Shown here in pieces: positions 5,284-32,983 of a stretch of DNA of 32,983 bases (positions within the stretch are counted from its first letter, which is position 1; every line of letters starts with the position of its first letter). Under the pieces are notes generated by a model that saw only the letters and a program-made list of their open reading frames with translations, searched no databases and had not been told where the DNA came from. Location of the stretch: positions 1-32,983 of the forward strand of contig DROB01000121.1 in NCBI GenBank assembly GCA_011321985.1, read 5' to 3'. This DNA comes from Gammaproteobacteria bacterium. Its GTDB lineage: Bacteria > Pseudomonadota > Gammaproteobacteria > SZUA-229. The position numbers were made by a program, and so were the translations under genes.

Positions 5284-7293
5284 TTATAGAGAACCGGAGA
5301 TGGCAGAGTAAAAATCATCGGCAGGTAATATCAGCTGTTCCAGTGGTAAAGGTTTTCCGAACAGGAAGCCCTGAAATTTCTGGCACCCTCTGGATAGTAA
5401 AAAGTCCATTATCTGCTGAGACTCCACGCCTTCAGCGACGATGTCGATGCTCATGTTCCTGGCCATCGCGATGATGGTCTTTATGATAGCTGCATCGTTT
5501 GCATTATTGACGGACTCCAGGACGAAAGATTTGTCGATCTTCAGGATATTGATCGGGAGTTGTTTCAGGTAAGTCAGTGATGAGTAACCTGTGCCAAAGT
5601 CATCGATCGCAAAACTGATACCGATCGATTTTAATATCTTCATCTTCTCGATCGTCTCATCGATATCTTTTAATACCATACCCTCGGTTATTTCCAGCTG
5701 TACATTATCAGGATTTATCGTTGTTTCGGCGATGACCGTTTTTACTTTCTGGATAAAGAGAGGCTCACTGAACTGACGTGGGCTCACATTGATGCAGATC
5801 TTTATGTCATCGTTACCGCTTATTATTTCAGAAAATTGCTGGCATGCTGTTTTTAATACCCACTCACCGATAGGGACGATGAGCCCGCTTTTTTCTGCTA
5901 TCTCGATGAACTCGTTCGGCAGGATCTGTCCTTTATCAGGATGGTTCCAGCGTAATAAAGCTTCATAGCCGATGATGTTTTTCTCATGGTCGACCTGAGG
6001 TTGATAATTTAATTCGAATTCATTATTCGCCAAGGCATGGTGCAGATCCTTTTCGATGGCCCGTCGATTATTGACCACCTGTTGCATTTCCGAGAAGAAT
6101 AAACGCGCGGTATTACGTCCCGCTTCTTTCGCTTCATATAGCGCGACATCGGATTTCTGTATTATGTCATCCGAACTGGTTTCATCGAGCGGAAAAAGTG
6201 ATATCCCTATGCTGACACTGGAATGTATGATGTGCCCGTCGATATCGAAGGCATCCTGAAATAACCGGAGTATCTCTGCCGAAAAATTTTCAGCATTGTC
6301 CGTCGCACTACTCAATTCATCTCCTGCTTCTGATATGAGAATGATAAACTCATCTCCACCGAGACGGGCGACGGTGTCTTCGTCCCTGACACGTTTTTTG
6401 ATACGGTGCGCCACCTGTTTTAATAACTCATCTCCGATGGCATGGCCGAGAGAATCATTGATGGTCTTGAAGTGGTCGAGGTCCAGAAATAATACAGCAC
6501 CGTAATGCTCGTGCCGGCTGGCGCGTTTCATCTCATGATTCAGACGTTCACTTAATAAACGACGGTTGGGTAGATCGGTCAGCATATCGTAGTGGGCCTG
6601 ATAGTGGATCATTTTCTCATCGATCAGCCGTTGATGCCGTATCGTCATCGACTCCCTGATCGTCCGGTTCAGGTTCTTTGATGTGACTATCATCATCACC
6701 GTGAATAACAGGGCCATCACAGCCATGTAGGTGGTTATCACAGAGTCTTCGAGCAGGAAGCGCGTGGTCAGGGGAATCGTCGTAAGCAAGATGAAGGCAA
6801 AAGAGGAAGATTTCAGAGGAGATAATGTCGCTACTGCTCCTGCAGACATACCGGTGAGGACAAAGGCGACAAACACCTGATGTGCCAGGTCGTTCGTGGG
6901 GAATAACCATATGGCGGCACTGCCCCATAATGCGCCCGAAGCGATACTGGTGATGAATGTTATGGTGCACCAGTAATCCGGTATGGCTCGCTCCATACCA
7001 AGCTTTTTAAACTTTCTGGCGATTCCGATGCGGGCCAGTGAAAGGGAATTGGTCGCAAAAAACCACACTAATATGGTTTCATGTGAAATCACATTCCACT
7101 GGATGATGCTGAGGATGGTGCTATTGATCAGCACGGCGGTCAATGTGAGTGCCAGTGAGGAATAGACTGTGCGTATTAAGTCCGAGGAGATATCGGGAAT
7201 ACTGACAGTGTTGTCGCCATCCGCAGCAAGTTCCGATGCCGTAATGTTCGTTTGTGCTCCAATAGTATTCGGAATAGGGTTTATACTGGTCAT
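5284..7293 (-). CDS. Membrane-anchored GGDEF-EAL protein (diguanylate cyclase / c-di-GMP phosphodiesterase) with a multi-TM N-terminal sensor domain
   Basis: 669 aa with about 7 hydrophobic helices at the N-terminus. An I-site-like RDED lies 5 residues before an intact GGDEF (RDEDTVARLGGDEF). EAL-domain motifs present: EALLRW, DDFGTGYSSL, KIDKSF, VAEGVE, QGFLFGKP. Confidence 0.9.
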   Translation of the reverse strand: MTSINPIPNTIGAQTNITASELAADGDNTVSIPDISSDLIRTVYSSLALTLTAVLINSTILSIIQWNVISHETILVWFFATNSLSLARIGIARKFKKLGMERAIPDYWCTITFITSIASGALWGSAAIWLFPTNDLAHQVFVAFVLTGMSAGAVATLSPLKSSSFAFILLTTIPLTTRFLLEDSVITTYMAVMALLFTVMMIVTSKNLNRTIRESMTIRHQRLIDEKMIHYQAHYDMLTDLPNRRLLSERLNHEMKRASRHEHYGAVLFLDLDHFKTINDSLGHAIGDELLKQVAHRIKKRVRDEDTVARLGGDEFIILISEAGDELSSATDNAENFSAEILRLFQDAFDIDGHIIHSSVSIGISLFPLDETSSDDIIQKSDVALYEAKEAGRNTARLFFSEMQQVVNNRRAIEKDLHHALANNEFELNYQPQVDHEKNIIGYEALLRWNHPDKGQILPNEFIEIAEKSGLIVPIGEWVLKTACQQFSEIISGNDDIKICINVSPRQFSEPLFIQKVKTVIAETTINPDNVQLEITEGMVLKDIDETIEKMKILKSIGISFAIDDFGTGYSSLTYLKQLPINILKIDKSFVLESVNNANDAAIIKTIIAMARNMSIDIVAEGVESQQIMDFLLSRGCQKFQGFLFGKPLPLEQLILPADDFYSAISGSL

Positions 7294-7319: not shown

Positions 7320-7640
7320 AAAATTTATTAGCAGGGAGTTAATATTCTTATAGATGATGATTGTGCATACGGCAATCGAATTCCACTGTTTGGATGAACA
7401 ATCTGACCAGGTGTCGCGTTTTTCATCAGATCTACCGTGCATCGGCGCTGTCATGGTTGCCCCATAGCACATCCGGATTTTGATGCAGTACGTGCCCGAT
7501 GCAGGACAGGATGCCTGAATACCACTGGCTGTCGGTATTATTTTTGGAGTCAGAGGTGATTTAAATGCCTTATTGGAGTTGCTCTAAACCACCGAAACAT
7601 GCAATATATGTACTAATTAATCGTGTTTTTTGGGTCACCC

Positions 7641-8492
7641 ATGAAAAATGACATTATTGCCAAGAAGGGACGCGCCGTTTTGAGAGGGAAGACCAGTTCT
7701 GTAGAGAGTGAAGGTCAGTTTGTTTCCAAGCTGCGAAACGCTATCAACGGTGATGAACTGAGCCTGCATTATCAACCGCGTTTTGATATCGTGCAGGGTA
7801 AAGCCGATGTTCTTGAAGCACTCGTACGCTGGTATGAGCCGGGGGTAGGCCTGTTTCACCCGGAAGTATTTATCGGCCCGGCAGAAGAGAATGGTCTGAT
7901 CTTTTCGCTGGATCTGTGGGTCTTTGAACAATGTTGTAAAGACATGAAACAGCTGCAGGCAACGGTTAACCCGAATGTGAAAATTGCAGTTAATATTTCG
8001 ATCCTGACCTGCGAAAGTATCTATTATGCCCAGAAGATCATCGAGATCAGCGAGAGGCACGGGGTCTCCCTGCTCGACTTCGAGTTTGAGATAACGGAGA
8101 CCAGTCAGATACGTGATATCCGGAAAGTCATCGCCTTTTGTGACACCTTGAAAAGTTATGGTGCAACATTCTGCCTGGATGATTTCGGGACCGGGCAGTC
8201 AGCACTGGTGAACCTGCAGATGTTGCCGGTCAGTACGGTAAAGATCAATCAATGTTTTGTTCAGGGTATCGGACAGTCAGATCGCAGTGAGAGTATCATC
8301 TGTGGTCTGATCAGGCTGGTAAAAGAACTGGGTATGCAGACGGTCGCCGAAGGTATCGAAACGAACGAGCAATACTGGTTCATGCGTGAGGCAGGTTGCG
8401 ATCAACTGCAAGGTTTTCTACTGGGCAGACCATTACGATTTATGCAGCTAAAAACGCAGTCACTAAAAGAACCTGTTATCAAAAACGGGTAG
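7641..8492 (+). CDS. Stand-alone EAL-domain protein (c-di-GMP phosphodiesterase)
   Basis: Motifs present: LEALVRW, NIS, EFEITE, DDFGTGQSAL, VKINQ, VAEGIE, QGFLLGRP. I placed the start at ATG 7641. The ORF track opens at GTG 7623, and neither start has a strong SD. Confidence 0.85.
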   Translation: MKNDIIAKKGRAVLRGKTSSVESEGQFVSKLRNAINGDELSLHYQPRFDIVQGKADVLEALVRWYEPGVGLFHPEVFIGPAEENGLIFSLDLWVFEQCCKDMKQLQATVNPNVKIAVNISILTCESIYYAQKIIEISERHGVSLLDFEFEITETSQIRDIRKVIAFCDTLKSYGATFCLDDFGTGQSALVNLQMLPVSTVKINQCFVQGIGQSDRSESIICGLIRLVKELGMQTVAEGIETNEQYWFMREAGCDQLQGFLLGRPLRFMQLKTQSLKEPVIKNG

Positions 8493-20795: not shown

Positions 20796-21287
20796 ATGCT
20801 CTCTGAAAAACAGATAAAATTCCAGTCTGATTTTTTATCACCTTTAAAGCAGAAACTTTTTTACCTGAAAGATCTGCCGATGGGGCTTATCGCGGGAATC
20901 CGCTTGATCCAGCTGGATGAGTCTGTCTGTGTCACCGAAGTGCCTTTTCGCTGGCGAAATAAAAACCCGTTCAGATCTATCTATTTCGCGGTGCAGAGCA
21001 TGGCAGCAGAACTGTCAACTGCGGCACCGGTACTGCTGGTGCTGAAAGGACTGGAAGCCAATATTGCTTATATCATCGTCGATCTGAAGGTGACGTTCGT
21101 AAAAAAAGCACAATCAAAAATCACTTTTACATGCACGGATTATGGCAATATCCTCGATGCACTTTCGTCCTTGAGGCACCCGGATGATAATGCCGAAGTC
21201 ACCCTGAAAACAGTGGGCAGAGATGCGCAGGGTGAGGAGGTAGCGGTGTTTCATTTTACCTGGTCATTTAAAGTCAGATCCTGTTGA
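20796..21287 (+). CDS. Hotdog-fold protein (DUF4442 / PaaI-thioesterase-like)
   Basis: 163 aa. The pattern is IRLIQLDESVCVTEVPFRWRNKNPFRSIYFAVQSMAAELSTAAPV. Assignment is from overall pattern only. Confidence 0.45.
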   Translation: MLSEKQIKFQSDFLSPLKQKLFYLKDLPMGLIAGIRLIQLDESVCVTEVPFRWRNKNPFRSIYFAVQSMAAELSTAAPVLLVLKGLEANIAYIIVDLKVTFVKKAQSKITFTCTDYGNILDALSSLRHPDDNAEVTLKTVGRDAQGEEVAVFHFTWSFKVRSC

Positions 21288-26065: not shown

Positions 26066-26113
26066 TCTGCGTGGTACACGGTAGAATGCGGTTTTTTTAA
26101 CTGGAGAAAATTG

Positions 26114-26587
26114 ATGTGTAAAGTTTGTTGGTCAATGGTTGTTGTACTGTTAATGATAACAACGGGCCTCGCTTATAAATTTATCGTTCAGGGTGACGTG
26201 ATCGAAATCAATGAGAATCGATTGGCCATACGGTTGAACGAGGGTGAGAGGACACTCGTGCTGTCTGAAATGCGGGTATTCTTACAGAGTGTTCAGCAGA
26301 TCACCCAGAGTATCGCAGAAGATGATATGGCAGCGGTGGTTAGCGCTGCGCGTAGTTCCGGACGCAGCGCACAGGCTGAGGTGCCAGGCTCGCTCGTCGG
26401 TAAACTCCCGCTGCCGTTTAAAAAACTGGGTTTTGATACGCATGCAAAATTTGATGAGCTGGCACTTGATGCCGAGCAGCTGGGTGATCGGGATCATGCG
26501 CTGACGCAGTTGAGTGTCCTGTTACAAAACTGTGTTTCCTGTCATGCCACATTCAGATTTTCTTTGGAGACAGAAAAGTCAGATTAG
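26114..26587 (+). CDS. Membrane-anchored protein with a C-terminal CxxCH heme-c motif (cytochrome c-prime / class II cytochrome c-like)
   Basis: N-terminal TM MVVVLLMITTGLAY, then about 130 aa of predicted helical sequence. A single CVSCH lies 15-19 residues from the C-terminus, the position typical of class II cytochromes c. GGAG SD lies 7 nt before ATG 26114. Confidence 0.45.
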   Translation: MCKVCWSMVVVLLMITTGLAYKFIVQGDVIEINENRLAIRLNEGERTLVLSEMRVFLQSVQQITQSIAEDDMAAVVSAARSSGRSAQAEVPGSLVGKLPLPFKKLGFDTHAKFDELALDAEQLGDRDHALTQLSVLLQNCVSCHATFRFSLETEKSD

Positions 26588-27700
26588 TGTTTGATCCACT
26601 ATCTGATAGTGATCCTGTAGATAAGCCAGCACTTCGTCCCGCTGTCCTTTGAATATCACGCGGTCTGATTTTTTTTCGGTCTGAAAATCATACATCGGGT
26701 CATAATAATCGACCAGCAGGATGCGGATCCAGTCTTTGTGTCGCGCGGTATCGCCGGTTGATTGCTGTTGTTTTATGGCATCGCTCAGCAGTGCCTTGAG
26801 TGCTTTATGGCGAACTCCACCGAGACGGCGTTGTATCTTGTCGAGTGCGGTCTGTAGATGTTCGGCCCAGGAGTCAAACCCCTGTTCAGCGCCATTATGT
26901 GCCAGATGCTCGGCCAGGGCTTCGGTAATATATTCCTGGAACGTGATATCCACCCTCTGTTCGACGCTGGCTTCCAGTATGATGAGTGGCGATTGCTTCA
27001 TCTTCTTCGCCAGTACATCCGGTATGCCTCTCGAACCTATATTGGTGCCTTCATCTTCGAATACGATGTGCGAGAACTGTCTGTGGCGAAGCTTGAGCAG
27101 TTCGATAGACAGTTTGTTTTCGATATCGATCTGGGAAGGCTGGGCCGTAACATGGTTGCCAAATACCGAGCCGCGATGATGATAAATACCTTCGAGGTCG
27201 ATCTGTTGTTCTATTTTTCTTAGCAGCAGTGTTTTACCGATGCCGGTTCTACCACCGAGCATGACGGGATGGATGTTCGCTACCGAGGTGTCCAGTTCGT
27301 CGAGCAGGTAACGACGCATGGCTTTGTAGCCACCTTTTATCCTGGGGTAGATCACACCGGTATGTTCGTATATCCACTGCTGTGATATCTTTGAGCGCAT
27401 GCCGCCACGGAAACAGTAGAGCACGCCCTGCGGATTTTTTTCGATAAAATTCTGCCAGTGTCTTATTCGCTCGTCTCTGGTTCTACCCTGGACAAGTTCG
27501 TGACCAAGTTCAACGGCTTCGTCCTGCCCCAATGTCTTGTAACGGATACCTATCTCTTCTCGCTCTTTATCATTGATCAGTGGATGATTCTCGGCAGAGG
27601 GGAACGCACCCTGATCAAATTCGACAGGTGCACGGACATCTAACAGGGGTATGTCGTTCAGGAGTAGCGAACGATAATCATCGATCTGGGGCAGGTCCAT
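26579..27700 (-). CDS. selU: tRNA 2-selenouridine synthase (rhodanese plus P-loop; SelU/MnmH/YbbB)
   Basis: Motifs present: DVRAPVEFDQGAFPSAENHPL, the rhodanese active-site loop YCFRGGMRSK, and the P-loop GGRTGIGKT. The product is 373 aa from ATG 27700. The track ORF continues upstream into the preceding gene. Confidence 0.85.
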   Translation of the reverse strand: MDLPQIDDYRSLLLNDIPLLDVRAPVEFDQGAFPSAENHPLINDKEREEIGIRYKTLGQDEAVELGHELVQGRTRDERIRHWQNFIEKNPQGVLYCFRGGMRSKISQQWIYEHTGVIYPRIKGGYKAMRRYLLDELDTSVANIHPVMLGGRTGIGKTLLLRKIEQQIDLEGIYHHRGSVFGNHVTAQPSQIDIENKLSIELLKLRHRQFSHIVFEDEGTNIGSRGIPDVLAKKMKQSPLIILEASVEQRVDITFQEYITEALAEHLAHNGAEQGFDSWAEHLQTALDKIQRRLGGVRHKALKALLSDAIKQQQSTGDTARHKDWIRILLVDYYDPMYDFQTEKKSDRVIFKGQRDEVLAYLQDHYQIVDQTLI

Positions 27701-27704
27701 AAAA

Positions 27705-28661
27705 TTATGATTTCGGGTAGGTTTCAAATACAGAGAACAGTTGTTCCCAGTCGATGGGCCGGTCCTGTGAGAGCTCTCTGATCCAGTGCTCGGCTCTCTC
27801 CTGTTTATCTGCATCGGTCGCGGCATAGACGAGGTTTAATTTTTTCAATATCATCAGGCTATTTTTTATATCCCCCAGCTGTTGGCGGATAAATAATGCA
27901 CGCAGAAGTTTATCACCGGCTTCTTCGAATCTTTTTTTCTGGTAATCCAGGTCTGCCCACTGTGTCAGGTTGGCGGCGATGGCGGTCCGGTTAGCCAGAT
28001 TGCGCGATATGTTGAGTGATCTACTGAGGCGTTCAATTTTTTTGTTATTGTCTTCGTCCAGCTCTGCTTCGAAGCGCAGGATGCGGGCCAGATGTGAAGT
28101 AGTATTCTCCTGATTTTTATTTTGCAGGGCGCGGTATCGATCCAGCCATCGCTGTTTATCTTTGCCCTGGGAGAAAGCTATCAAGGTTCGATTCTTCAAT
28201 GCTGCCAGTCGTATCCCGATGCTTTTACTGGCCAGAGGGTTTTCCAGATCCTGGATCGCCTGCTGATAAAGCTGGTTTTTTATGGCTAATGTGGACTCGA
28301 CTAATTTCAGGTGATCATCCAGTTCATCGAGGGAAGCTTGCTCTATCACAGATCTAGCTTTTATCAGGTACTGGCTGGCGGCCTCGTTGTGATTATTTGC
28401 CATCAATGATTTGGTGATGTTCAGGCAGCTTTTGGCGATACCGGCCTGGTCATCGATACTCCTGTACTGCGCCAGTGCTTTTTTGAAGGTGTGGATGGCT
28501 CCAGGGTAATTATCGTTGTCGTATCTGATTATCCCCTGGTCCAGTAGCAGTGCCGGAGATGACAGTGATACGGGTAGCGGTTTTTTTTCAGGGCCACCGG
28601 AGCAGGCCGTTAATGCCAGCAGCATGATGATGAGAGAAGAGGGTTTATGATGCCATTTCAT
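27705..28661 (-). CDS. Lipoprotein with TPR-like helical repeats
   Basis: Signal peptide plus lipobox LTAC. The rest is all-helical repeat-like sequence (e.g. YPGAIHTFKKALAQYRSIDDQAGIAKSCLNITKSL, FEEAGDKLLRALFIRQQLGD). Confidence 0.65.
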   Translation of the reverse strand: MKWHHKPSSLIIMLLALTACSGGPEKKPLPVSLSSPALLLDQGIIRYDNDNYPGAIHTFKKALAQYRSIDDQAGIAKSCLNITKSLMANNHNEAASQYLIKARSVIEQASLDELDDHLKLVESTLAIKNQLYQQAIQDLENPLASKSIGIRLAALKNRTLIAFSQGKDKQRWLDRYRALQNKNQENTTSHLARILRFEAELDEDNNKKIERLSRSLNISRNLANRTAIAANLTQWADLDYQKKRFEEAGDKLLRALFIRQQLGDIKNSLMILKKLNLVYAATDADKQERAEHWIRELSQDRPIDWEQLFSVFETYPKS

Positions 28662-28677
28662 GATGCGTTAATCCTGT

Positions 28678-29694
28678 TCACTCTGAGGCTTCAGGTGAGG
28701 ATAGAGATTGTTTGGTGTCTTTGGGCATGCTGCTCGATAATGGCCAGATCTGTTGCGTGGCTTTTATGGTCTTATCGGCTTCCTCCAGTAGGGGTTTTAC
28801 CTTGTCTGTGAGTTCAGGTAGTTCATCGACCTGCTGCTGTATACTCTCTAATAACGTGCGGGTCTGCTCGGTGATGAGTTTGAGGTTGCTGACAGAGCTT
28901 GAGATATCCTGTTGCATCTGTTTATCATAGATCGAACTTCCCGCTGCACCATGGCCTTGCTGGATCTGATCGGTGATGTCTTTCAGATTACTTATGGTGC
29001 CTGTCATCTCCTGTTGCATCCCGTCATCATAGATAGCGTTGCCGGCAAAGCCTTTTCCCTGACGGATCTGCTCGGTGATGTCCTTCAGATTGTTACTGAT
29101 AGATGAAAGATTGCTGATATTGGTGCCGACCTGCCCGGGGTCGATCTCCTGCAGGATCTCATTCATGCGTTTGATGGAATCCTGTAATGCGCCCAGCACC
29201 GGTTCAAACTTTGCCACCAGCTTGACCAGGTTCAGTGACTCTTTTATGGGAAGGGTATCCCCATTTTCTATGATGGGTAATCTGGGGGAGCCGATAGAGA
29301 TCTCGATGACAGATTTACCCAGGAGAGCAAATTTAAAATTGAGTAGTTCGGCTATCGAATCTTTTCTTATCAGTTTCTGGTATTTTTTCAGTATCATCAT
29401 ACTGACGACGACATGGTTAGTGTCATCGATATTGACCTCGGATACGTGACCGACATTGAGTCCGGAGATGATGACATCGGTGTCTTCATTGACCGCCTGT
29501 ATCGAACTCATGGTGCCATATAAAGTTATCTCGTCCTCGAACAGGTTCTGTGTCTTTTGCGAGGTAAGCAATAACCAGACCAGCAGACCGATGGCGATCA
29601 ATACGAAACTACCTGCCAGTTTCTCCTGTGCAGAGTAACTCAGGCGGTGGATGTAATGTGCCCGTGTCCTGTTATTGCGTCTGTTGTCTGGCAT
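28678..29694 (-). CDS. MlaD/MCE-domain protein with a repeat-containing helical C-terminal extension
   Basis: N-terminal TM, then the MCE domain (ITLYGTMSSIQAVNEDTDVIISGLNVGHVSEVNIDD...VVVSMMILKKY...IRKDSIAELLNFKFALLGKSVIEISIG), then repeats and a coiled-coil-like tail. Confidence 0.85.
   Translation of the reverse strand: MPDNRRNNRTRAHYIHRLSYSAQEKLAGSFVLIAIGLLVWLLLTSQKTQNLFEDEITLYGTMSSIQAVNEDTDVIISGLNVGHVSEVNIDDTNHVVVSMMILKKYQKLIRKDSIAELLNFKFALLGKSVIEISIGSPRLPIIENGDTLPIKESLNLVKLVAKFEPVLGALQDSIKRMNEILQEIDPGQVGTNISNLSSISNNLKDITEQIRQGKGFAGNAIYDDGMQQEMTGTISNLKDITDQIQQGHGAAGSSIYDKQMQQDISSSVSNLKLITEQTRTLLESIQQQVDELPELTDKVKPLLEEADKTIKATQQIWPLSSSMPKDTKQSLSSPEASE
28864..29100 (-). repeat. In-frame tandem duplication of about 34-35 codons (2.3 copies) in the MCE protein C-terminal region
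   Basis: The units are ISNNLKDITEQIRQGKGFAGNAIYDDGMQQEMTGT / ISNLKDITDQIQQGHGAAGSSIYDKQMQQDISSS / VSNLKLITEQ. The nucleotide-level similarity is visible at 28912-29106. Confidence 0.8.
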
Positions 29695-30461
29695 TATGCT
29701 ATGGCTCGATTTCCCTGGCGGGTAATAAATTCACTGACGACAGGTATATCACAATCCAGTATCGCCTGCTTCGAATCGAAATGCAGCAGATTGTCCCTGC
29801 TGGTAAAAATAATCTTATCAGAGATAGCGAGTGCATAGGGTATATCGTGTGTCACGAATAAGAGTGACAGCCCTGTCCTGTTCTGCTTCTCCAGGAAAGT
29901 CTGAAACTGATATTTGCTATCGCTGTTAAAGTGGGCAAACGGATTGTTCAGTGCCAGCACATCCGGTTCCAGTAGCAGGGCTCGGGCGATGGCTATCTTA
30001 TAGCGTTGATCTTTGTCTATATAGGCAGGTAGATCATACAGGTTGATGTCCGGGTCGATATCGTTCAGTAGTGCCCGTGCTTTTTCTGTCAGTAACGGCT
30101 TGTCGAGCGTCGTCCTGTCGAGTCGATGATACAGTGCAGGAGCCAGTACATTAATCAGAGCATTCGCGGCGGACAGCAGCGCGGTATCCTCATGCAGATA
30201 GGCTACTCTCATGCGTGATAAGGCCCACTCTCTGGCACTGATGTCCAGGGTGTCCATGCCTTTTATGAGCACCTTGCCGGAGAGCTGGTCTTCCAGGCCG
30301 CAGATCGTTCTTATCCAGTTCCCCTTGCCGGAATAATTCGGCCCGATGATACTGACGACTTCTCCCGTGTTTATTTTGAGATCAAGCGCATCACCCTGAT
30401 AATCGAAAGGCAGTGCCTGTGGGATCAGGTCCTCGCACTGGATGAGGGTATCGGTCTGCAT
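29694..30461 (-). CDS. MlaF-like ABC nucleotide-binding-domain protein with degenerate catalytic motifs (putative pseudo-ATPase)
   Basis: The overall NBD layout is recognisable. Motif positions read: GPNYSGKGN (Walker A), AYLHEDTALL (Q-loop), YIDKDQRYKIAIARALL (signature), PDVLALNNPFAHFN (Walker B and D-loop), FVTHD (H-loop). It is coupled to both neighbouring genes. Confidence 0.75.
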   Translation of the reverse strand: MQTDTLIQCEDLIPQALPFDYQGDALDLKINTGEVVSIIGPNYSGKGNWIRTICGLEDQLSGKVLIKGMDTLDISAREWALSRMRVAYLHEDTALLSAANALINVLAPALYHRLDRTTLDKPLLTEKARALLNDIDPDINLYDLPAYIDKDQRYKIAIARALLLEPDVLALNNPFAHFNSDSKYQFQTFLEKQNRTGLSLLFVTHDIPYALAISDKIIFTSRDNLLHFDSKQAILDCDIPVVSEFITRQGNRAIA

Positions 30462-30463
30462 GA

Positions 30464-31270
30464 TCAGATGAAGATGGCGAGGGTTAATAGAGCATCGATA
30501 ACGAAGACGAAGCTGAGACTCTGTACGATAGAGGCTGTCGTTCTCTGTGGTACTTCGGTTGCAGAACTCTGCACACGCAGGCCGTTGTAACAGGCGACCG
30601 TGGCGATGACAAAACCAAAGATGATGTTTTTGACCACAAAAATACTTATCAGATATGGCGTGAATGAATTACTGATTTTGAAAATAAAATTGAAGTATGT
30701 CGGGTTGATGAGGACGGTGCTGATCAGTATCCCACTGAGCAGGGCGATTACGGTAAAATAAACAGTGATCGCCAGTTGTGATATAGCGGTGCTGATGATC
30801 CTTGGTGCTATCAGATAATCATTGATGTTGATGCCCAGGTTTTCCAGAGCTTCGATCTCGCCGTGTAATTTCATATTACCAAGGTCGACAACGATGGCAG
30901 ACCCGGTTCGGCTGATAATGATGATAGCTGCGAGGAAAGGACCAGCACTCAGGCAGATAACAGAGATGAGTAGATTGGTAATGTCTTCGGTGCCACCCAG
31001 CGTGTTGGAGATAGAGATGAGTCTGAAGGTGAAGATAAAACCGGTGGCCAGACCCAGGAAGGTGATGGTCGGTAACGCATCGACACCGGTAAATATAATC
31101 TGGGCGACTGTCGCCGAGTAGCTACGTGAATCGAATAATCTGTTTTTGTTAAACCAGTCTCGCAGTGCGAGCATACTAAACGTCATCAGATTGATGACGT
31201 ATAATACGTGGTGGATGATTTTTCGCCCTGGCCATCCGGTGATCGTGCTGACAATTTGAGACGCAGACAT
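30464..31270 (-). CDS. MlaE-family ABC transporter permease
   Basis: 268 aa. Family patterns present: SRTGSAIVVDLGNMKLHGEIEALENLGIN...IAPRI, KNIIFGFVIATVACYNGL, and the C-terminal IDALLTLAIF. Confidence 0.85.
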   Translation of the reverse strand: MSASQIVSTITGWPGRKIIHHVLYVINLMTFSMLALRDWFNKNRLFDSRSYSATVAQIIFTGVDALPTITFLGLATGFIFTFRLISISNTLGGTEDITNLLISVICLSAGPFLAAIIIISRTGSAIVVDLGNMKLHGEIEALENLGININDYLIAPRIISTAISQLAITVYFTVIALLSGILISTVLINPTYFNFIFKISNSFTPYLISIFVVKNIIFGFVIATVACYNGLRVQSSATEVPQRTTASIVQSLSFVFVIDALLTLAIFI

Positions 31271-31353
31271 ATTTATGATAACTGATCAGAATAGCCCTAA
31301 ATATATCATGATATTACGTGTGAAGTGGGCACAAAAATGTGCATAATAATGCT

Positions 31354-32475
31354 ATGTTGAAAAACCGCCTAAAATCGATATCTGCGGTATTGTTACTGGT
31401 CGTTTCCTGTAGCCAGATCGTCCATGCCGAGACGAAGGTTTATCAATATGATGGCAAGCTACCGTTCGTGCAGATGATGCTGAACATGATGGTGGCGATG
31501 GGTATTTTGGATCGCTTACCCGCTAACGGTGCTTACGGTGGGTTTTCGGCTTTTCCTTCATCACCCTGGTCGAGATTATCCAGTCCGTATACCCGGGCGC
31601 TCGCGATGCAGGGGATATCCTCTGGTCCGTTTTCACGTTTATCGGGGTTAAATAATTCAGACACGGCATGGGGCAGTCCTAGCTGGGGGGGCTTGCCGAT
31701 AGAGAGTTATACCACCAATAATTACCCGATATATGAGCAGCCGGGATTCTCTCGGACGTGGCAGTCGACGGAACTGGATGACTGGGTGAATGAGCCGTGG
31801 GAAACATCGGTATGGAACCCTGAAGCTGAAACCACGACACGGTTACCGCCATCGGCGATGCAGAAAGCGCCTCCGCCTCAACAGACGGTGCCACTGGTAC
31901 AGAACTTTAACTACAATGTCCCGGCGAGTGCCGTCACCCCGGTGCCGCCAGCCACCACGCAGGCACAAGCTGCGCGCAGACAGGTCAAGCGACAATCTCC
32001 TCTGTCCAGGCTGGCGCAGCCACGTAATACTGCTCGGCAACCGCAACCCCCGGGAAGTGCTGTAAAAAAGAGACAGCAGAAACCTTCACCATTGCGTAAA
32101 AAACTCAGGCAGAAGCCCTGTATCACTGAATTCTGTGGTCTGAAAAAACCGACCCTGAATGGGTTATGGGTGGCACAGAATGGTGAGATGCTGGGGGTCA
32201 AGAATCGACACTATCTATGGAGTGATAACCAATCACGTTACCTGACGGGGCGGCTAAAGGTGGAGAATGAATACCTGCTTGCCAGCGTAGACGGTTATGA
32301 TAACAAGTTGATGCGTTTCAAGTATAAACTGGCAGGCAATCATCTGTTGACGCTGCAGCCGGATGGCAAGATGCGTGAATTTGTTCGGGTGCCAGTCAGT
32401 CAGAAATCTAACCTTCAGAATTTTAATAACCAGATTTATAATAGTCAGAACTATAATAAACAGAGATACCGTTAG
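31354..32475 (+). CDS. Secreted or lipoprotein hypothetical protein: disordered P/Q/S-rich centre, small C-terminal beta-rich domain, N/Q-rich tail
   Basis: The signal peptide is MLKNRLKSISAVLLLVVSCSQIVHA, so either lipobox VVSC or cleavage after VHA. I recognised no family. I placed the start at ATG 31354. The track ORF opens at GTG 31339. Confidence 0.55.
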   Translation: MLKNRLKSISAVLLLVVSCSQIVHAETKVYQYDGKLPFVQMMLNMMVAMGILDRLPANGAYGGFSAFPSSPWSRLSSPYTRALAMQGISSGPFSRLSGLNNSDTAWGSPSWGGLPIESYTTNNYPIYEQPGFSRTWQSTELDDWVNEPWETSVWNPEAETTTRLPPSAMQKAPPPQQTVPLVQNFNYNVPASAVTPVPPATTQAQAARRQVKRQSPLSRLAQPRNTARQPQPPGSAVKKRQQKPSPLRKKLRQKPCITEFCGLKKPTLNGLWVAQNGEMLGVKNRHYLWSDNQSRYLTGRLKVENEYLLASVDGYDNKLMRFKYKLAGNHLLTLQPDGKMREFVRVPVSQKSNLQNFNNQIYNSQNYNKQRYR

Positions 32476-32557: not shown

Positions 32558-32983
32558 TCATCCATCTTCGAGAACCAGGTCTATTTCCTGCATACCTTTC
32601 TGTTGCTGAGTATAAGCGCGCATCTCCAGCACACCTTTGGTATTAAGGGAGATGATGAGATAGAACACATCCTTGTAACCACTTTCCTCAATATCCTGCC
32701 GTGAAGGAGATGCCACCGTGTCAGGATGTGAATGTATGATGGCAAAAAGTTGCTGGTTTTTATCGCGCATCTGTTTTATCGCTGATATCTGCTGTGGTGC
32801 GTCCATCAGGAAATGGCAGCGGGGATTTCTGGATACGTTTTCGATCGGGTAGTAGTCTTTCTGTTGTGTCGTGCTGTTGCCGATCAAGCCGCATACTTCT
32901 ACGTCAGGATTTTTTTGAGCATGTGCCAGAATTTTGTTGACCAGGGGGCGAGGTAGCGAAAGGTTTGCTGTGTCTGTCGGCAT
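32558..32983 (-). CDS. JAMM/MPN+ (Mov34/PAD-1, M67-family) metalloprotease
   Basis: The upstream Glu is in DVEVCGLIG, and the JAMM motif is HSHPDTVASPSRQD (H-x-H-x7-S-x2-D). 141 aa. The ATG is the last three bases of the window, so the upstream context is not visible. Confidence 0.8.
   Translation of the reverse strand: MPTDTANLSLPRPLVNKILAHAQKNPDVEVCGLIGNSTTQQKDYYPIENVSRNPRCHFLMDAPQQISAIKQMRDKNQQLFAIIHSHPDTVASPSRQDIEESGYKDVFYLIISLNTKGVLEMRAYTQQQKGMQEIDLVLEDG

What the first reader, a model, noticed from the sequence alone, without database searches (positions are those of the whole stretch)
29694..30461. Mla/MCE-type ABC operon whose only ATPase subunit has lost nearly every catalytic motif
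The 255-aa protein between the MlaE-like permease and the MCE protein has the ABC NBD layout. When I read the motifs in order, almost all are degenerate.
- Walker A is GPNYSGKGN instead of GxxGxGK[ST]. The fourth Gly is Tyr, and the Mg-binding Ser/Thr is Gly.
- The Q-loop position reads AYLHEDTALL, with no Gln.
- The ABC signature LSGGQ is replaced by IDKDQ, in YIDKDQRYKIAIARALL.
- Walker B hhhhDE is VLALNN, so both the Asp and the catalytic Glu are Asn.
- The D-loop Asp is Asn (AHFN).
- Only the H-loop (FVTHD) survives.

Mla-type transporters use a homodimer of one NBD gene, so both nucleotide sites would be defective. The ORF is nevertheless full length. It sits 2 nt after the permease stop and overlaps the MCE start (TAATG). 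The flanking permease and MCE genes look intact. That fits a retained pseudo-ATPase better than a decaying pseudogene. The implication would be an MCE lipid-trafficking complex that is energised differently, or one that works as a passive or regulated scaffold.
Basis: partly seen in the sequence, partly recalled or inferred. Interest (0 to 1): 0.72.

Follow-up and report, generated by a model that had tools for sequence, protein, structure and literature searches.

The report
Conserved dead ATPase in lipid-transporter operon
A bacterial envelope lipid-transport operon encodes, as its only "motor" subunit, an ABC ATPase look-alike that has lost its catalytic residues. Evolution has nevertheless kept it in a whole family of Gammaproteobacteria, which suggests these transporters do not run on the usual ATP cycle.

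Summary
The 255-aa ORF lies on the minus strand at 29694-30461, between an MlaE-type permease and an MCE protein. It is a full-length ABC nucleotide-binding domain.
- Fold: AlphaFold pLDDT 95.5, and the top structural matches include E. coli MlaF and mycobacterial MceG.
- Motifs: aligned to E. coli MlaF, it reads GPNYSGKG (Walker A), Glu for the Q-loop Gln, IDKDQ for LSGGQ, NN for the Walker B Asp and catalytic Glu, and Asn for the D-loop Asp. Only the H-loop His is kept.

It is not a decaying gene.
- There are 117 full-length homologues.
- 18 species-level MAG loci carry the same four-gene cassette: permease, NBD, MCE, TPR lipoprotein.
- dN/dS is 0.11-0.22.
- None of the 117 has a catalytic Glu.

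A profile search shows a larger gammaproteobacterial family of the same cassette, including cultured Aliidiomarina quisquiliarum. The signature glycines are absent in all members (0/91). The other catalytic residues were lost repeatedly and patchily. The helical subdomain, which in solved ABC transporters docks on the permease, is invariant.

Best reading: a retained pseudo-ATPase serving as a structural or regulatory subunit. How transport is energised is not shown. I could not test whether a canonical MlaF exists elsewhere in the genome. I found no published description.

The parts
30464..31270 (-). MlaE-family permease (268 aa), first gene of the cassette
   Evidence: Pfam MlaE 165 bits and NCBIfam MlaE-family 120 bits. 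It is 24% identical to E. coli MlaE. It is the most conserved cassette protein: 82-87% identity in near relatives and 40-65% in distant ones. The motif R-x-GSA-x-x-VD-x-GNM-x-L-x-x-E-x-E-x-LE is invariant across the family and aligns with the E. coli MlaE stretch [23 protein letters not shown]. That this stretch is the NBD-contact region is my inference; it was not mapped on a structure here.
29694..30461 (-). Degenerate ABC nucleotide-binding domain (255 aa), the pseudo-ATPase that is the subject of the finding
   Evidence: Pfam ABC_tran 53 bits. AF2 pLDDT 95.5, pTM 0.92. Foldseek: E. coli MlaF 6xbd TMq 0.86, MceG 8fed 0.85-0.86. Register against MlaF. Conservation.
30318..30344 (-). Walker A remnant GPNYSGKGN (residues 40-48)
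   Evidence: Aligns to GPSGIGKTT of MlaF. In 117 homologues: G40 117, Tyr43 97, Lys46 110, and position 47 is Gly 72 / Ser 43.
30189..30191 (-). Q-loop position, Glu91 instead of Gln
   Evidence: Family counts are E65, A30, S10, T5, Q4, D3.
30006..30020 (-). Signature-motif remnant IDKDQ (residues 148-152) in place of LSGGQ
   Evidence: The family consensus is [IL]-[ST]-K-[DE]-[HQ], with Lys at the first Gly position in 108/117. No member of the wider family has the two glycines (0/91; 0/77).
29943..29960 (-). Walker B remnant VLALNN (residues 168-173): Asp to Asn, catalytic Glu to Asn
   Evidence: The catalytic Glu is present in 0/117 (N83, K16, H6, S4, R3, D2, A1). The Walker B Asp is present in 35/117.
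29925..29936 (-). D-loop remnant AHFN (residues 176-179)
   Evidence: Family counts at position 179 are N72 / D38.
29844..29855 (-). H-loop VTHD (residues 203-206), the only canonical catalytic motif kept in this copy
   Evidence: His is present in 82/117 of the clade and variable elsewhere (D16, N6, Q3, R3).
28678..29694 (-). MCE (MlaD-family) protein, 338 aa: cytoplasmic N-terminus, one TM helix, one MCE domain, and a C-terminal region of about 190 aa predicted helical
   Evidence: Pfam MlaD residues 56-133. 23% identity to E. coli MlaD (183 aa) over the MCE domain only. Family alignment A4. Relatives have a weak Pfam Helical_needle hit. Its own AF2 model failed (pLDDT 36.6), so only the secondary structure is used.
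27705..28661 (-). TPR-repeat lipoprotein (318 aa), fourth gene of the cassette
   Evidence: Weak TPR hits. N-terminal signal with lipobox LALTAC. A lipobox Cys is present in 20 of 21 orthologues inspected. It always lies directly downstream of the MCE gene.

Best explanation
The ORF encodes a conserved pseudo-ATPase. It is a correctly folded ABC nucleotide-binding domain that can no longer run the canonical ATP-sandwich hydrolysis cycle.

It is kept because it is a structural, and possibly ligand-regulated, cytoplasmic subunit of a four-protein MCE envelope complex. The complex would be an MlaE-type permease dimer, two pseudo-NBDs, an MCE ring with a long helical extension, and a TPR lipoprotein.

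Shown here:
- the NBD fold;
- the register and loss of Walker A Ser/Thr, the Q-loop Gln, the signature, the Walker B Asp, the catalytic Glu and the D-loop Asp;
- purifying selection;
- co-inheritance of the four genes;
- relaxation at catalytic columns against invariance in the helical subdomain.

Inferred:
- two copies dock on the permease dimer as MlaF does;
- they fix or gate the permease conformation rather than power it;
- lipid movement through the MCE conduit is therefore passive (down a gradient) or driven by something other than this protein's ATP hydrolysis.

Within the window's clade, the P-loop Lys46 and a new Lys at the first signature-glycine position are well conserved. A residual phosphate- or ligand-binding role, or a nucleotide-independent NBD-NBD contact, is therefore possible.
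For: 1. Register and motif loss were confirmed three ways.

2. The fold is intact. AF2 pLDDT is 95.5. The structural matches with the highest query TM-scores are MlaF and MceG, at TMq 0.85-0.86.

3. The gene is retained.
- 237 homologues at E<=1e-5; 117 of the 120 listed are full length.
- The cassette permease-NBD-MCE-TPR is present in 18 species-representative MAG loci and in several metagenome contigs.

4. Selection is purifying. NBD dN/dS is 0.11-0.22 in the five least saturated pairs. For comparison, permease is 0.03-0.05, MCE 0.04-0.09 and TPR 0.10-0.16.

5. Catalysis is not what is being selected.
- The catalytic Glu is present in 0/117.
- Catalytic columns (91, 149, 173, 179, 205) are less conserved than the median column.
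- S97, A98, N100, N104, P108, A109, Y111, H112, P145, A146, I156, R160, L162 and L164 are invariant or nearly so.

6. There is a wider family.
- Among the top 150 of 1.84 billion representatives, 77 are single-domain relatives, and none has an xSGGx signature.
- Of the 7 sampled, 4 sit in the full four-gene cassette. The other 3 are on contigs under 2 kb that keep the flanking permease, and in two of them the MCE gene as well.

7. On an NJ tree rooted with E. coli MlaF, the signature glycines are lost once. Walker A Lys, the catalytic Glu and the H-loop His change state at least 9, 9 and 21 times. This is the pattern expected once hydrolysis is dispensable.

8. No other ABC NBD lies in the window.
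Against: - No biochemical data exist. Loss of activity is inferred from residues known to be essential in other ABC ATPases.
- Lys46 (110/117) and the glycine frame of the P-loop are conserved in the window's clade, so nucleotide binding cannot be excluded.
- Basal family members keep GxxxxGK[ST], Asp-Glu, the D-loop Asp and the H-loop His (for example P0159, P0183, P0157) and may still hydrolyse ATP slowly. The family as a whole is therefore not uniformly dead.
- I could not test whether the genome encodes a canonical MlaF that might act in trans.
- Physical assembly of the four proteins, and the envelope-spanning architecture, are inferred from synteny and homology. The MCE structure prediction failed.
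- The NJ tree has no support values and a single outgroup.
Confidence: 0.7

Rival explanations
1. Nucleotide-gated switch. The protein still binds ATP, or another phosphate-bearing ligand, through its modified P-loop but does not hydrolyse it. Ligand occupancy, not hydrolysis, opens or closes the permease. The protein would then be a sensor or regulator, not a pure scaffold.
For: - Within the window's clade the P-loop frame is strongly kept: G40 117/117, G45 105/117, Lys46 110/117, Tyr43 97/117.
- Lys46 is among the best-conserved 16% of columns.
- The H-loop His is kept in 82/117.
- Basal relatives keep complete Walker A and B motifs.
Against: - The Mg-coordinating Ser/Thr is Gly in 72/117 and the Walker B Asp is Asn in 78/117.
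- The signature that clamps ATP from the partner subunit is gone in all members.
- Across the wider family the P-loop Lys is absent in 33/91 while the cassette persists, so ligand binding at this site cannot be the family-wide function.
Confidence: 0.2
2. Energised in trans. A canonical ABC ATPase encoded elsewhere supplies the power, for example the MlaF of a housekeeping mlaFEDCB operon. In mycobacteria the single MceG serves several Mce permease sets in this way. The operon's own NBD would be an accessory or assembly factor.
For: - Mycobacterial mce operons lack their own ATPase, and MceG is shared between Mce1 and Mce4 (PMC9947336, listed).
- Relatives of one cultured carrier, the genus Pseudidiomarina, are reported to have MlaBCDEF (PMC10893183). 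A canonical MlaF is therefore probably present in at least some carrier genomes.
- I could not scan the window's genome.
Against: - The operon's own NBD is present in every cassette copy examined.
- Its most conserved surface is the helical subdomain and Q-loop region. From general knowledge of ABC structures, this region contacts the permease coupling helix.
- A homodimeric permease offers only two NBD sites, which this protein would occupy.
- A mixed dimer would still have one site lacking a Walker A Ser/Thr and the other lacking a signature.
Confidence: 0.07
3. Ordinary gene decay: a recently inactivated mlaF on its way to loss.
For: The NBD evolves faster than the permease and the MCE protein. 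This shows some relaxation of constraint.
Against: - The gene is full length with no frameshift in 117 homologues down to 39% identity.
- It is also full length in wider relatives at 24-44% identity.
- dN/dS is 0.11-0.22 with synonymous sites near saturation.
- The substituted motifs are themselves conserved, for example [IL][ST]K[DE][HQ] and GP[DN]YSGK.
- AF2 predicts the fold with confidence.
Confidence: 0.02

Closest known systems
E. coli MlaFEDB (Mla phospholipid ABC transporter)
   Same: - MlaE-family permease, NBD of MlaF-like fold (TMq 0.86 to 6xbd) and MCE-domain protein, all in one operon.
- One NBD gene, which implies a homodimer.
   Different: - The NBD lacks the Walker A Ser/Thr, Q-loop Gln, LSGGQ, Walker B Asp, catalytic Glu and D-loop Asp.
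- The alignment to MlaF ends at MlaF residue 244 of 269, so most of MlaF's C-terminal tail has no counterpart.
- Gene order is E-F-D, not F-E-D.
- No MlaB/STAS or MlaC gene lies nearby.
- The MCE protein is 338 aa against 183 aa, with a long helical C-terminus.
- A TPR lipoprotein follows it.
Veillonella parvula-type MlaEFD with elongated MlaD ('ancestral transenvelope bridge', Grasekamp et al. 2023, PMC10665443)
   Same: - mlaE-mlaF-mlaD order with overlapping F/D start and stop codons.
- Elongated MlaD with an alpha-helical extension.
- No MlaA, MlaB or MlaC genes in the operon.
   Different: - That paper describes MlaF as closely resembling proteobacterial MlaF. In a term search of its text, 'degenerate' does not occur.
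- V. parvula MlaD ends in an outer-membrane beta-barrel. No barrel is evident here, and a separate TPR lipoprotein is encoded instead.
Mycobacterial Mce1/Mce4 with MceG
   Same: MlaE-type permeases, MCE proteins with long helical extensions, and an NBD of the same fold (8fed TMq 0.85-0.86).
   Different: MceG is described as the ATPase that couples transport to ATP and is encoded apart from the mce operons (PMC9947336). Here the NBD is in the operon and is degenerate.
PqiABC and LetAB (E. coli MCE systems without an ABC ATPase)
   Same: They are MCE-based envelope conduits that work without an ABC ATPase motor. PqiB has a C-terminal helical needle and PqiC is a lipoprotein partner. These statements come from my own knowledge of the literature and were not tested here.
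   Different: Their inner-membrane partners (PqiA, LetA) are unrelated to MlaE. No NBD-fold subunit is present.
Heterodimeric ABC exporters with one degenerate site (e.g. TM287/288, BmrCD, Rv1273c/72c)
   Same: Substitutions of the catalytic Glu, signature and other motifs are tolerated and conserved (PMC12038006, PMC5216877).
   Different: Those always keep one consensus, hydrolysing site in a heterodimer. Here a single NBD gene implies that both sites are degenerate.

Membership tests
Catalytically competent ABC ATPase (ABC_tran NBD) | RecA-like plus helical-subdomain NBD fold | tested here: met
   Pfam PF00005 53 bits, above the 25-bit cut-off. AF2 pLDDT 95.5. Foldseek probability 1.00 to many NBDs.
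Catalytically competent ABC ATPase (ABC_tran NBD) | Walker A GxxGxGK[ST] | tested here: not met
   The window protein reads GPNYSGKG: the 4th Gly is Tyr, Ser/Thr is Gly, and Lys is kept. In the clade, position 47 is Gly 72 / Ser 43.
Catalytically competent ABC ATPase (ABC_tran NBD) | Q-loop glutamine | tested here: not met
   Glu91 in the window. Gln is present in 4/117.
Catalytically competent ABC ATPase (ABC_tran NBD) | ABC signature LSGGQ | tested here: not met
   IDKDQ in the window. 0/91 and 0/77 relatives have the glycine pair.
Catalytically competent ABC ATPase (ABC_tran NBD) | Walker B hhhhD followed by the catalytic Glu | tested here: not met
   VLALNN in the window. Glu is present in 0/117 and Asp in 35/117.
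Catalytically competent ABC ATPase (ABC_tran NBD) | H-loop histidine | tested here: met
   THD in the window. His is variable in the family, 82/117.
Catalytically competent ABC ATPase (ABC_tran NBD) | ATP binding and hydrolysis | not testable with these tools
   This needs biochemistry on purified protein or complex.
Mla-type MCE ABC transporter (MlaFEDB) | MlaE-family permease encoded with the NBD | tested here: met
   Pfam MlaE 165 bits. The gene is adjacent, with a 2-nt gap.
Mla-type MCE ABC transporter (MlaFEDB) | MCE-domain (MlaD) protein with an N-terminal TM anchor | tested here: met
   Pfam MlaD 40 bits and TIGR04430 61 bits, the latter below its cut-off. A hydrophobic segment spans residues about 27-45.
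Mla-type MCE ABC transporter (MlaFEDB) | Functional MlaF ATPase driving transport | tested here: not met
   The motifs are lost. No NCBIfam equivalog threshold was reached.
Mla-type MCE ABC transporter (MlaFEDB) | MlaB (STAS) and MlaC partners in the operon | tested here: not met
   No such genes occur in the window or in the +-10 kb of related loci. Their presence elsewhere in the genome was not testable.
Transenvelope MlaEFD with elongated MlaD | E-F-D gene order and an MlaD much longer than 183 aa with a helical extension | tested here: met
   Gene order. The MCE protein is 338 aa. Helices are predicted at 154-320, but the model is low confidence. Weak Helical_needle hits occur in orthologues.
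Transenvelope MlaEFD with elongated MlaD | C-terminal outer-membrane beta-barrel on MlaD | tested here: inconclusive
   No beta-rich C-terminal region appears in the secondary-structure read-out, but the model is unreliable. A separate lipoprotein is encoded instead.
ATPase-less MCE systems (PqiABC / LetAB) | PqiA/LetA-type inner-membrane partner | tested here: not met
   The membrane partner here is MlaE-family. The system may work like these systems but is not a member.

The most novel reading that the evidence does not exclude
A widespread, undescribed class of gammaproteobacterial MCE systems (MlaE permease, pseudo-NBD, long MCE protein, TPR lipoprotein) has abandoned ATP hydrolysis altogether. 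The ABC 'motor' has become a static or ligand-gated clamp. Lipid flow between the membranes is then passive or driven by another energy source. This would be a natural experiment showing that an MlaE/MCE conduit can function without an ATPase cycle.
Probability: 0.45. Interest if true: 0.85.

Novelty: new variant of a known kind. Interest (0 to 1): 0.7.

Why it matters
How MCE systems move lipids between the two membranes, in which direction, and what ATP hydrolysis contributes, is still debated for Mla. A review listed (PMC10212509) is titled 'Forward or backward, that is the question'.

ABC transporters are defined by their ATPase. Known degenerate sites sit in heterodimers that keep one active site. 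Here a single-gene NBD is degenerate at both sites, yet it is kept under selection across a whole family. That offers three things:
- A natural control for what the NBD does besides hydrolysing ATP, such as assembly, clamping the permease or gating.
- A series of natural intermediates, from members that lack only the signature to members that have lost everything, which orders the steps of becoming a pseudoenzyme.
- A culturable entry point, Aliidiomarina quisquiliarum.

It also matters for annotation. These proteins are currently labelled 'MlaF ATPase subunit' or 'ATP-binding cassette domain-containing protein'.

Tried and rejected
1. Alternative motif register. I looked for one with three independent alignments. 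None gives canonical motifs, so this was rejected.

2. Pseudogene decay. Rejected on conservation and dN/dS.

3. A second NBD nearby. None is in the window. The only other NBDs within +-10 kb of related loci belong to an unrelated NMT1/BPD_transp_1-type ABC importer.

4. A canonical mlaF in the same genome. This could not be tested:
- a 1.29-Mb contig carrying the cassette exists, but only +-10 kb can be read.

5. The second protein search, with a broad-family profile, mostly returned the same clade and added little.

6. AF2 of the MCE protein.
- A run with 37 close homologues gave an unusable model (pLDDT 36.6), so the envelope-spanning architecture remains an inference.

7. Promoter and terminator scans around the operon were no better than shuffled sequence.

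8. The permease alignment was searched for family-specific charged residues that might hint at proton coupling. Only D64 and E239 are family-specific invariants. I draw no conclusion from them.

9. Seven literature searches found no description of a degenerate NBD in an MCE system. The library is incomplete, so this is absence of evidence only.

10. Sequence profiles do not place the family closer to MlaF than to ArtP/GlnQ-, LolD- or DppD-type NBDs. The assignment to the MlaF type rests on context and on structural matches.
Full report
**What is there**

The finding's coordinates hold a 255-aa ORF on the minus strand (29694-30461). It is the second gene of a tightly packed four-gene operon:
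- an MlaE-family permease (30464-31270);
- the NBD-like protein;
- an MCE/MlaD-family protein (28678-29694);
- a TPR-repeat lipoprotein (27705-28661).

The DNA shows the permease stop TGA, two bases, then the NBD ATG. The NBD stop overlaps the MCE start as TAATG. Pfam assigns MlaE (165 bits), ABC_tran (only 53 bits) and MlaD (40 bits). NCBIfam gives no equivalog-level match for the NBD.

**Motif register**

Three independent alignments agree: phmmer against PDB chains, a 91-sequence family profile against PDB chains, and BLASTP against E. coli K-12 MlaF taken from NC_000913.3. The MlaF alignment has 25% identity, E 1e-16, and five gap positions over 224 columns.

| Motif | E. coli MlaF | Window protein |
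|---|---|---|
| Walker A | GPSGIGKTT | GPNYSGKGN |
| Q-loop | Gln | Glu91 |
| Signature | LSGGM | IDKDQ |
| Walker B | FDEPF | LNNPF |
| D-loop | GQD | HFN |
| H-loop | SHD | THD |

The one refinement is that the Walker A lysine is retained.

**The fold is intact**

AlphaFold2 with the family alignment gives mean pLDDT 95.5 and pTM 0.92. Foldseek against the PDB gives probability 1.00 to many NBDs. The highest query TM-scores (0.85-0.86) go to E. coli MlaF (6xbd, 6xgz, 7cgn) and mycobacterial MceG (8fed). Sequence profiles alone do not place the family closer to MlaF than to ArtP-, LolD- or DppD-type NBDs.

**It is conserved, not decaying**

- A search of 5.8 billion proteins found 237 homologues at E<=1e-5. 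Of the 120 listed, 117 are full length.
- A scan of one genome per species (GTDB) found 18 loci. All are uncultured Gammaproteobacteria, and two are labelled Thiotrichaceae.
- In 14 of the 18 loci, tblastn shows all four genes in the same order. In the other four the contig ends inside the cassette.
- The same cassette is on JGI contigs of 75 kb, 180 kb and 1.29 Mb, downstream of hemA-prfA-prmC-ThiF-JAB.
- In the five locus pairs whose synonymous sites are least saturated (dS about 1.0-1.3), dN/dS is 0.11-0.22 for the NBD. It is 0.03-0.05 for the permease, 0.04-0.09 for the MCE protein and 0.10-0.16 for the TPR protein.
- All comparisons that involve the window itself are saturated at synonymous sites.

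The NBD is thus under purifying selection. It is nevertheless the fastest-evolving or joint fastest-evolving cassette protein. NBDs are normally the best-conserved ABC subunit (general knowledge), so this is the reverse of the usual pattern.

**What selection preserves**

Counts across the 117 full-length homologues:

| Position | Residue counts |
|---|---|
| Catalytic Glu | never present (N83, K16, H6, S4, R3, D2, A1) |
| Walker B Asp | D35, N78 |
| Walker A Ser/Thr | G72, S43 |
| Q-loop Gln | Gln in 4 |
| Signature | [IL]-[ST]-K-[DE]-[HQ], with Lys at the first glycine position in 108 |
| H-loop His | His in 82 |

Weighted column entropies show two things. The catalytic positions (91, 149, 173, 179, 205) are less conserved than the median column. 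The helical-subdomain stretch S97-A98-x-N100-x-x-x-N104-x-x-x-P108-A109-x-Y111-H112, together with P145-A146 and I156/R160/L162/L164, is invariant or nearly so.

In solved ABC transporters that region forms the groove for the permease coupling helix (general knowledge). Its permease counterpart, R-x-GSA-x-x-VD-x-GNM-x-L-x-x-E-x-E-x-LE, is invariant in the family. Lys46 and Lys150 are also well kept.

**A much larger family**

A profile search of 1.84 billion representatives gave 470 hits at E<=1e-30.
- Of the best 150, 72 are ordinary two-domain ABC proteins that score high by summing two domains.
- The other 77 new single-domain hits are proteins of about 250 aa. None has an xSGGx signature, and 28 keep GxxxxGK[ST].
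- Their motif states range from intact Walker A, Walker B, D-loop and H-loop (P0159: GPQGGGKT, DE, D, H) to total loss (P0164: GIDRKVLD; P0153: GENPSQVS).

Seven of these distant members were looked up.
- Four sit in the full cassette of MlaE permease, NBD, MCE protein of about 320-346 aa and TPR protein of about 310-325 aa.
- The other three are on contigs under 2 kb. These keep the flanking permease, and in two of them the MCE gene as well.
- All the proteins present are orthologous to the window's.
- One carrier is cultured: Aliidiomarina quisquiliarum (WP_252627370.1, GCA_023922585.1).

On a neighbour-joining tree of 91 members rooted with E. coli MlaF, the signature glycines are lost once. 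The Walker A Lys, catalytic Glu, Walker B Asp and H-loop His change state at least 9, 9, 15 and 21 times. The window's clade is the most derived branch. The tree has no support values and a single outgroup.

**Interpretation**

The pattern has three parts: one early loss of the motif that clamps ATP across the dimer, repeated and patchy loss of the remaining catalytic residues, and constant preservation of the fold, the putative permease-contact surface and the gene neighbourhood. This is what a pseudoenzyme family looks like once catalysis has become dispensable.

I therefore read the protein as a retained non-catalytic NBD that remains a structural, possibly regulatory, subunit of the permease. 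Complex formation is inferred, not shown.

**The rest of the machine**

- The MCE protein has a cytoplasmic N-terminus of about 26 residues with an invariant HYIHRxSYxxQE motif. This is followed by one TM helix, one MCE domain and about 190 residues predicted helical. It ends in an invariant IWPLS motif.
- E. coli MlaD is 183 aa and aligns only over the MCE domain.
- Orthologues give weak Helical_needle hits.
- My AlphaFold model of this protein was unusable (pLDDT 36.6).
- The fourth protein has a lipobox cysteine in 20 of 21 orthologues.
- The E-F-D order, the elongated MlaD and the absence of MlaB and MlaC genes nearby resemble the 'ancestral transenvelope' MlaEFD systems described for Veillonella parvula (PMC10665443). 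In a term search of that paper, 'degenerate' does not occur.

An envelope-spanning conduit that needs no periplasmic shuttle is a reasonable inference, but only an inference.

**Rivals**

- A nucleotide-gated, non-hydrolysing switch is compatible with the conserved Lys46 in this clade. It cannot be the family-wide function, because the Lys is missing in 33 of 91 members.
- Energising in trans by a canonical MlaF, as MceG does in mycobacteria (PMC9947336), could not be tested, because I could not scan the same genome. The conserved helical subdomain of the operon's own NBD argues against it.
- Gene decay and mis-registration are rejected.

**Novelty**

Seven full-text searches found no account of a degenerate NBD in an MCE or Mla system. 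Known degenerate ABC sites are in heterodimers that keep one active site (for example PMC12038006). Databases label these proteins as MlaF ATPase or as generic ABC proteins.

I class the finding as a new variant of a known kind (MCE-type ABC transporters) and not as a new kind of system. Interest is high for the ABC and envelope-lipid fields, tempered by the lack of any functional data and by the untested in-trans possibility.

Noticed in passing
window 29617-29694 (MCE residues 1-26) and 28678-28760 (C-terminus): The MCE protein has an invariant cytoplasmic motif, H13-Y-I-H16-R-x-S-Y20-x-x-Q23-E24, just before its TM helix. It also has an invariant I-W317-P-L-S320 motif near its C-terminus. 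Both are conserved down to 30% identity, including in Aliidiomarina. E. coli MlaD aligns only from its residue 37 and seems to lack the N-terminal motif. These motifs are candidate contact points for the pseudo-NBD or permease and for the TPR lipoprotein.
   Followed up: partly
window about 28870-28960 (MCE residues about 245-275): The window's MCE protein carries a duplicated module, 'NLKDIT-QI-QG-G-AG--IYD', in its helical region. This adds about 30 residues. The duplication is shared with L007 and L013 but absent from other close relatives (311 aa against 338-342 aa). The length of the helical extension therefore varies within the clade.
   Followed up: no
window 31339-32475 (+): A 378-aa protein is transcribed divergently from the operon. 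It has an N-terminal hydrophobic signal-like segment, a Pro/Gln/Ala-rich low-complexity middle and a conserved C-terminal region. It has no Pfam match. It holds the same position in the window's near clade and in L009/L015, at 35-62% identity. It is missing from the other far-clade loci and from the wider-family loci.
   Followed up: partly
window 32558-32983 (-), running off the window end: A Prok-JAB (JAB/MPN) protein lies next to the cassette. In related contigs it is preceded by a ThiF-family E1-like gene and by hemA-prfA-prmC. This ThiF/JAB pair stays adjacent to the cassette across the window clade.
   Followed up: no
window 26579-27826 (-): The listed 415-aa ORF overlaps the end of the TPR gene by about 120 nt. 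Homologues align only from residue 43, so the real start is probably the Met at about 27700. The protein combines a rhodanese-like domain with a P-loop. From memory this resembles tRNA 2-selenouridine synthase (SelU/MnmH); I did not verify that. It follows the cassette only in the window, L013 and L016.
   Followed up: partly
window 26111-26587 (+): A 158-aa ORF has a C-terminal CxxCH motif (CVSCH) and a sub-threshold Cytochrome C' hit (21 bits against a 26.5-bit cut-off). It may be a divergent class II cytochrome c.
   Followed up: no
window 5284-7293 (-) and 7623-8492 (+): A GGDEF-EAL protein and a stand-alone EAL protein lie next to feoB. Related contigs carry a PAS-GGDEF-EAL gene a few kb downstream of the cassette. 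No link to the cassette has been established.
   Followed up: no
L029/L032 13260-13745 and window 20796-21287: A DUF4442 (thioesterase-like) gene lies about 0.5 kb downstream of the cassette in Aliidiomarina. One lies about 6.4 kb from the cassette in the window. This may be coincidence.
   Followed up: no
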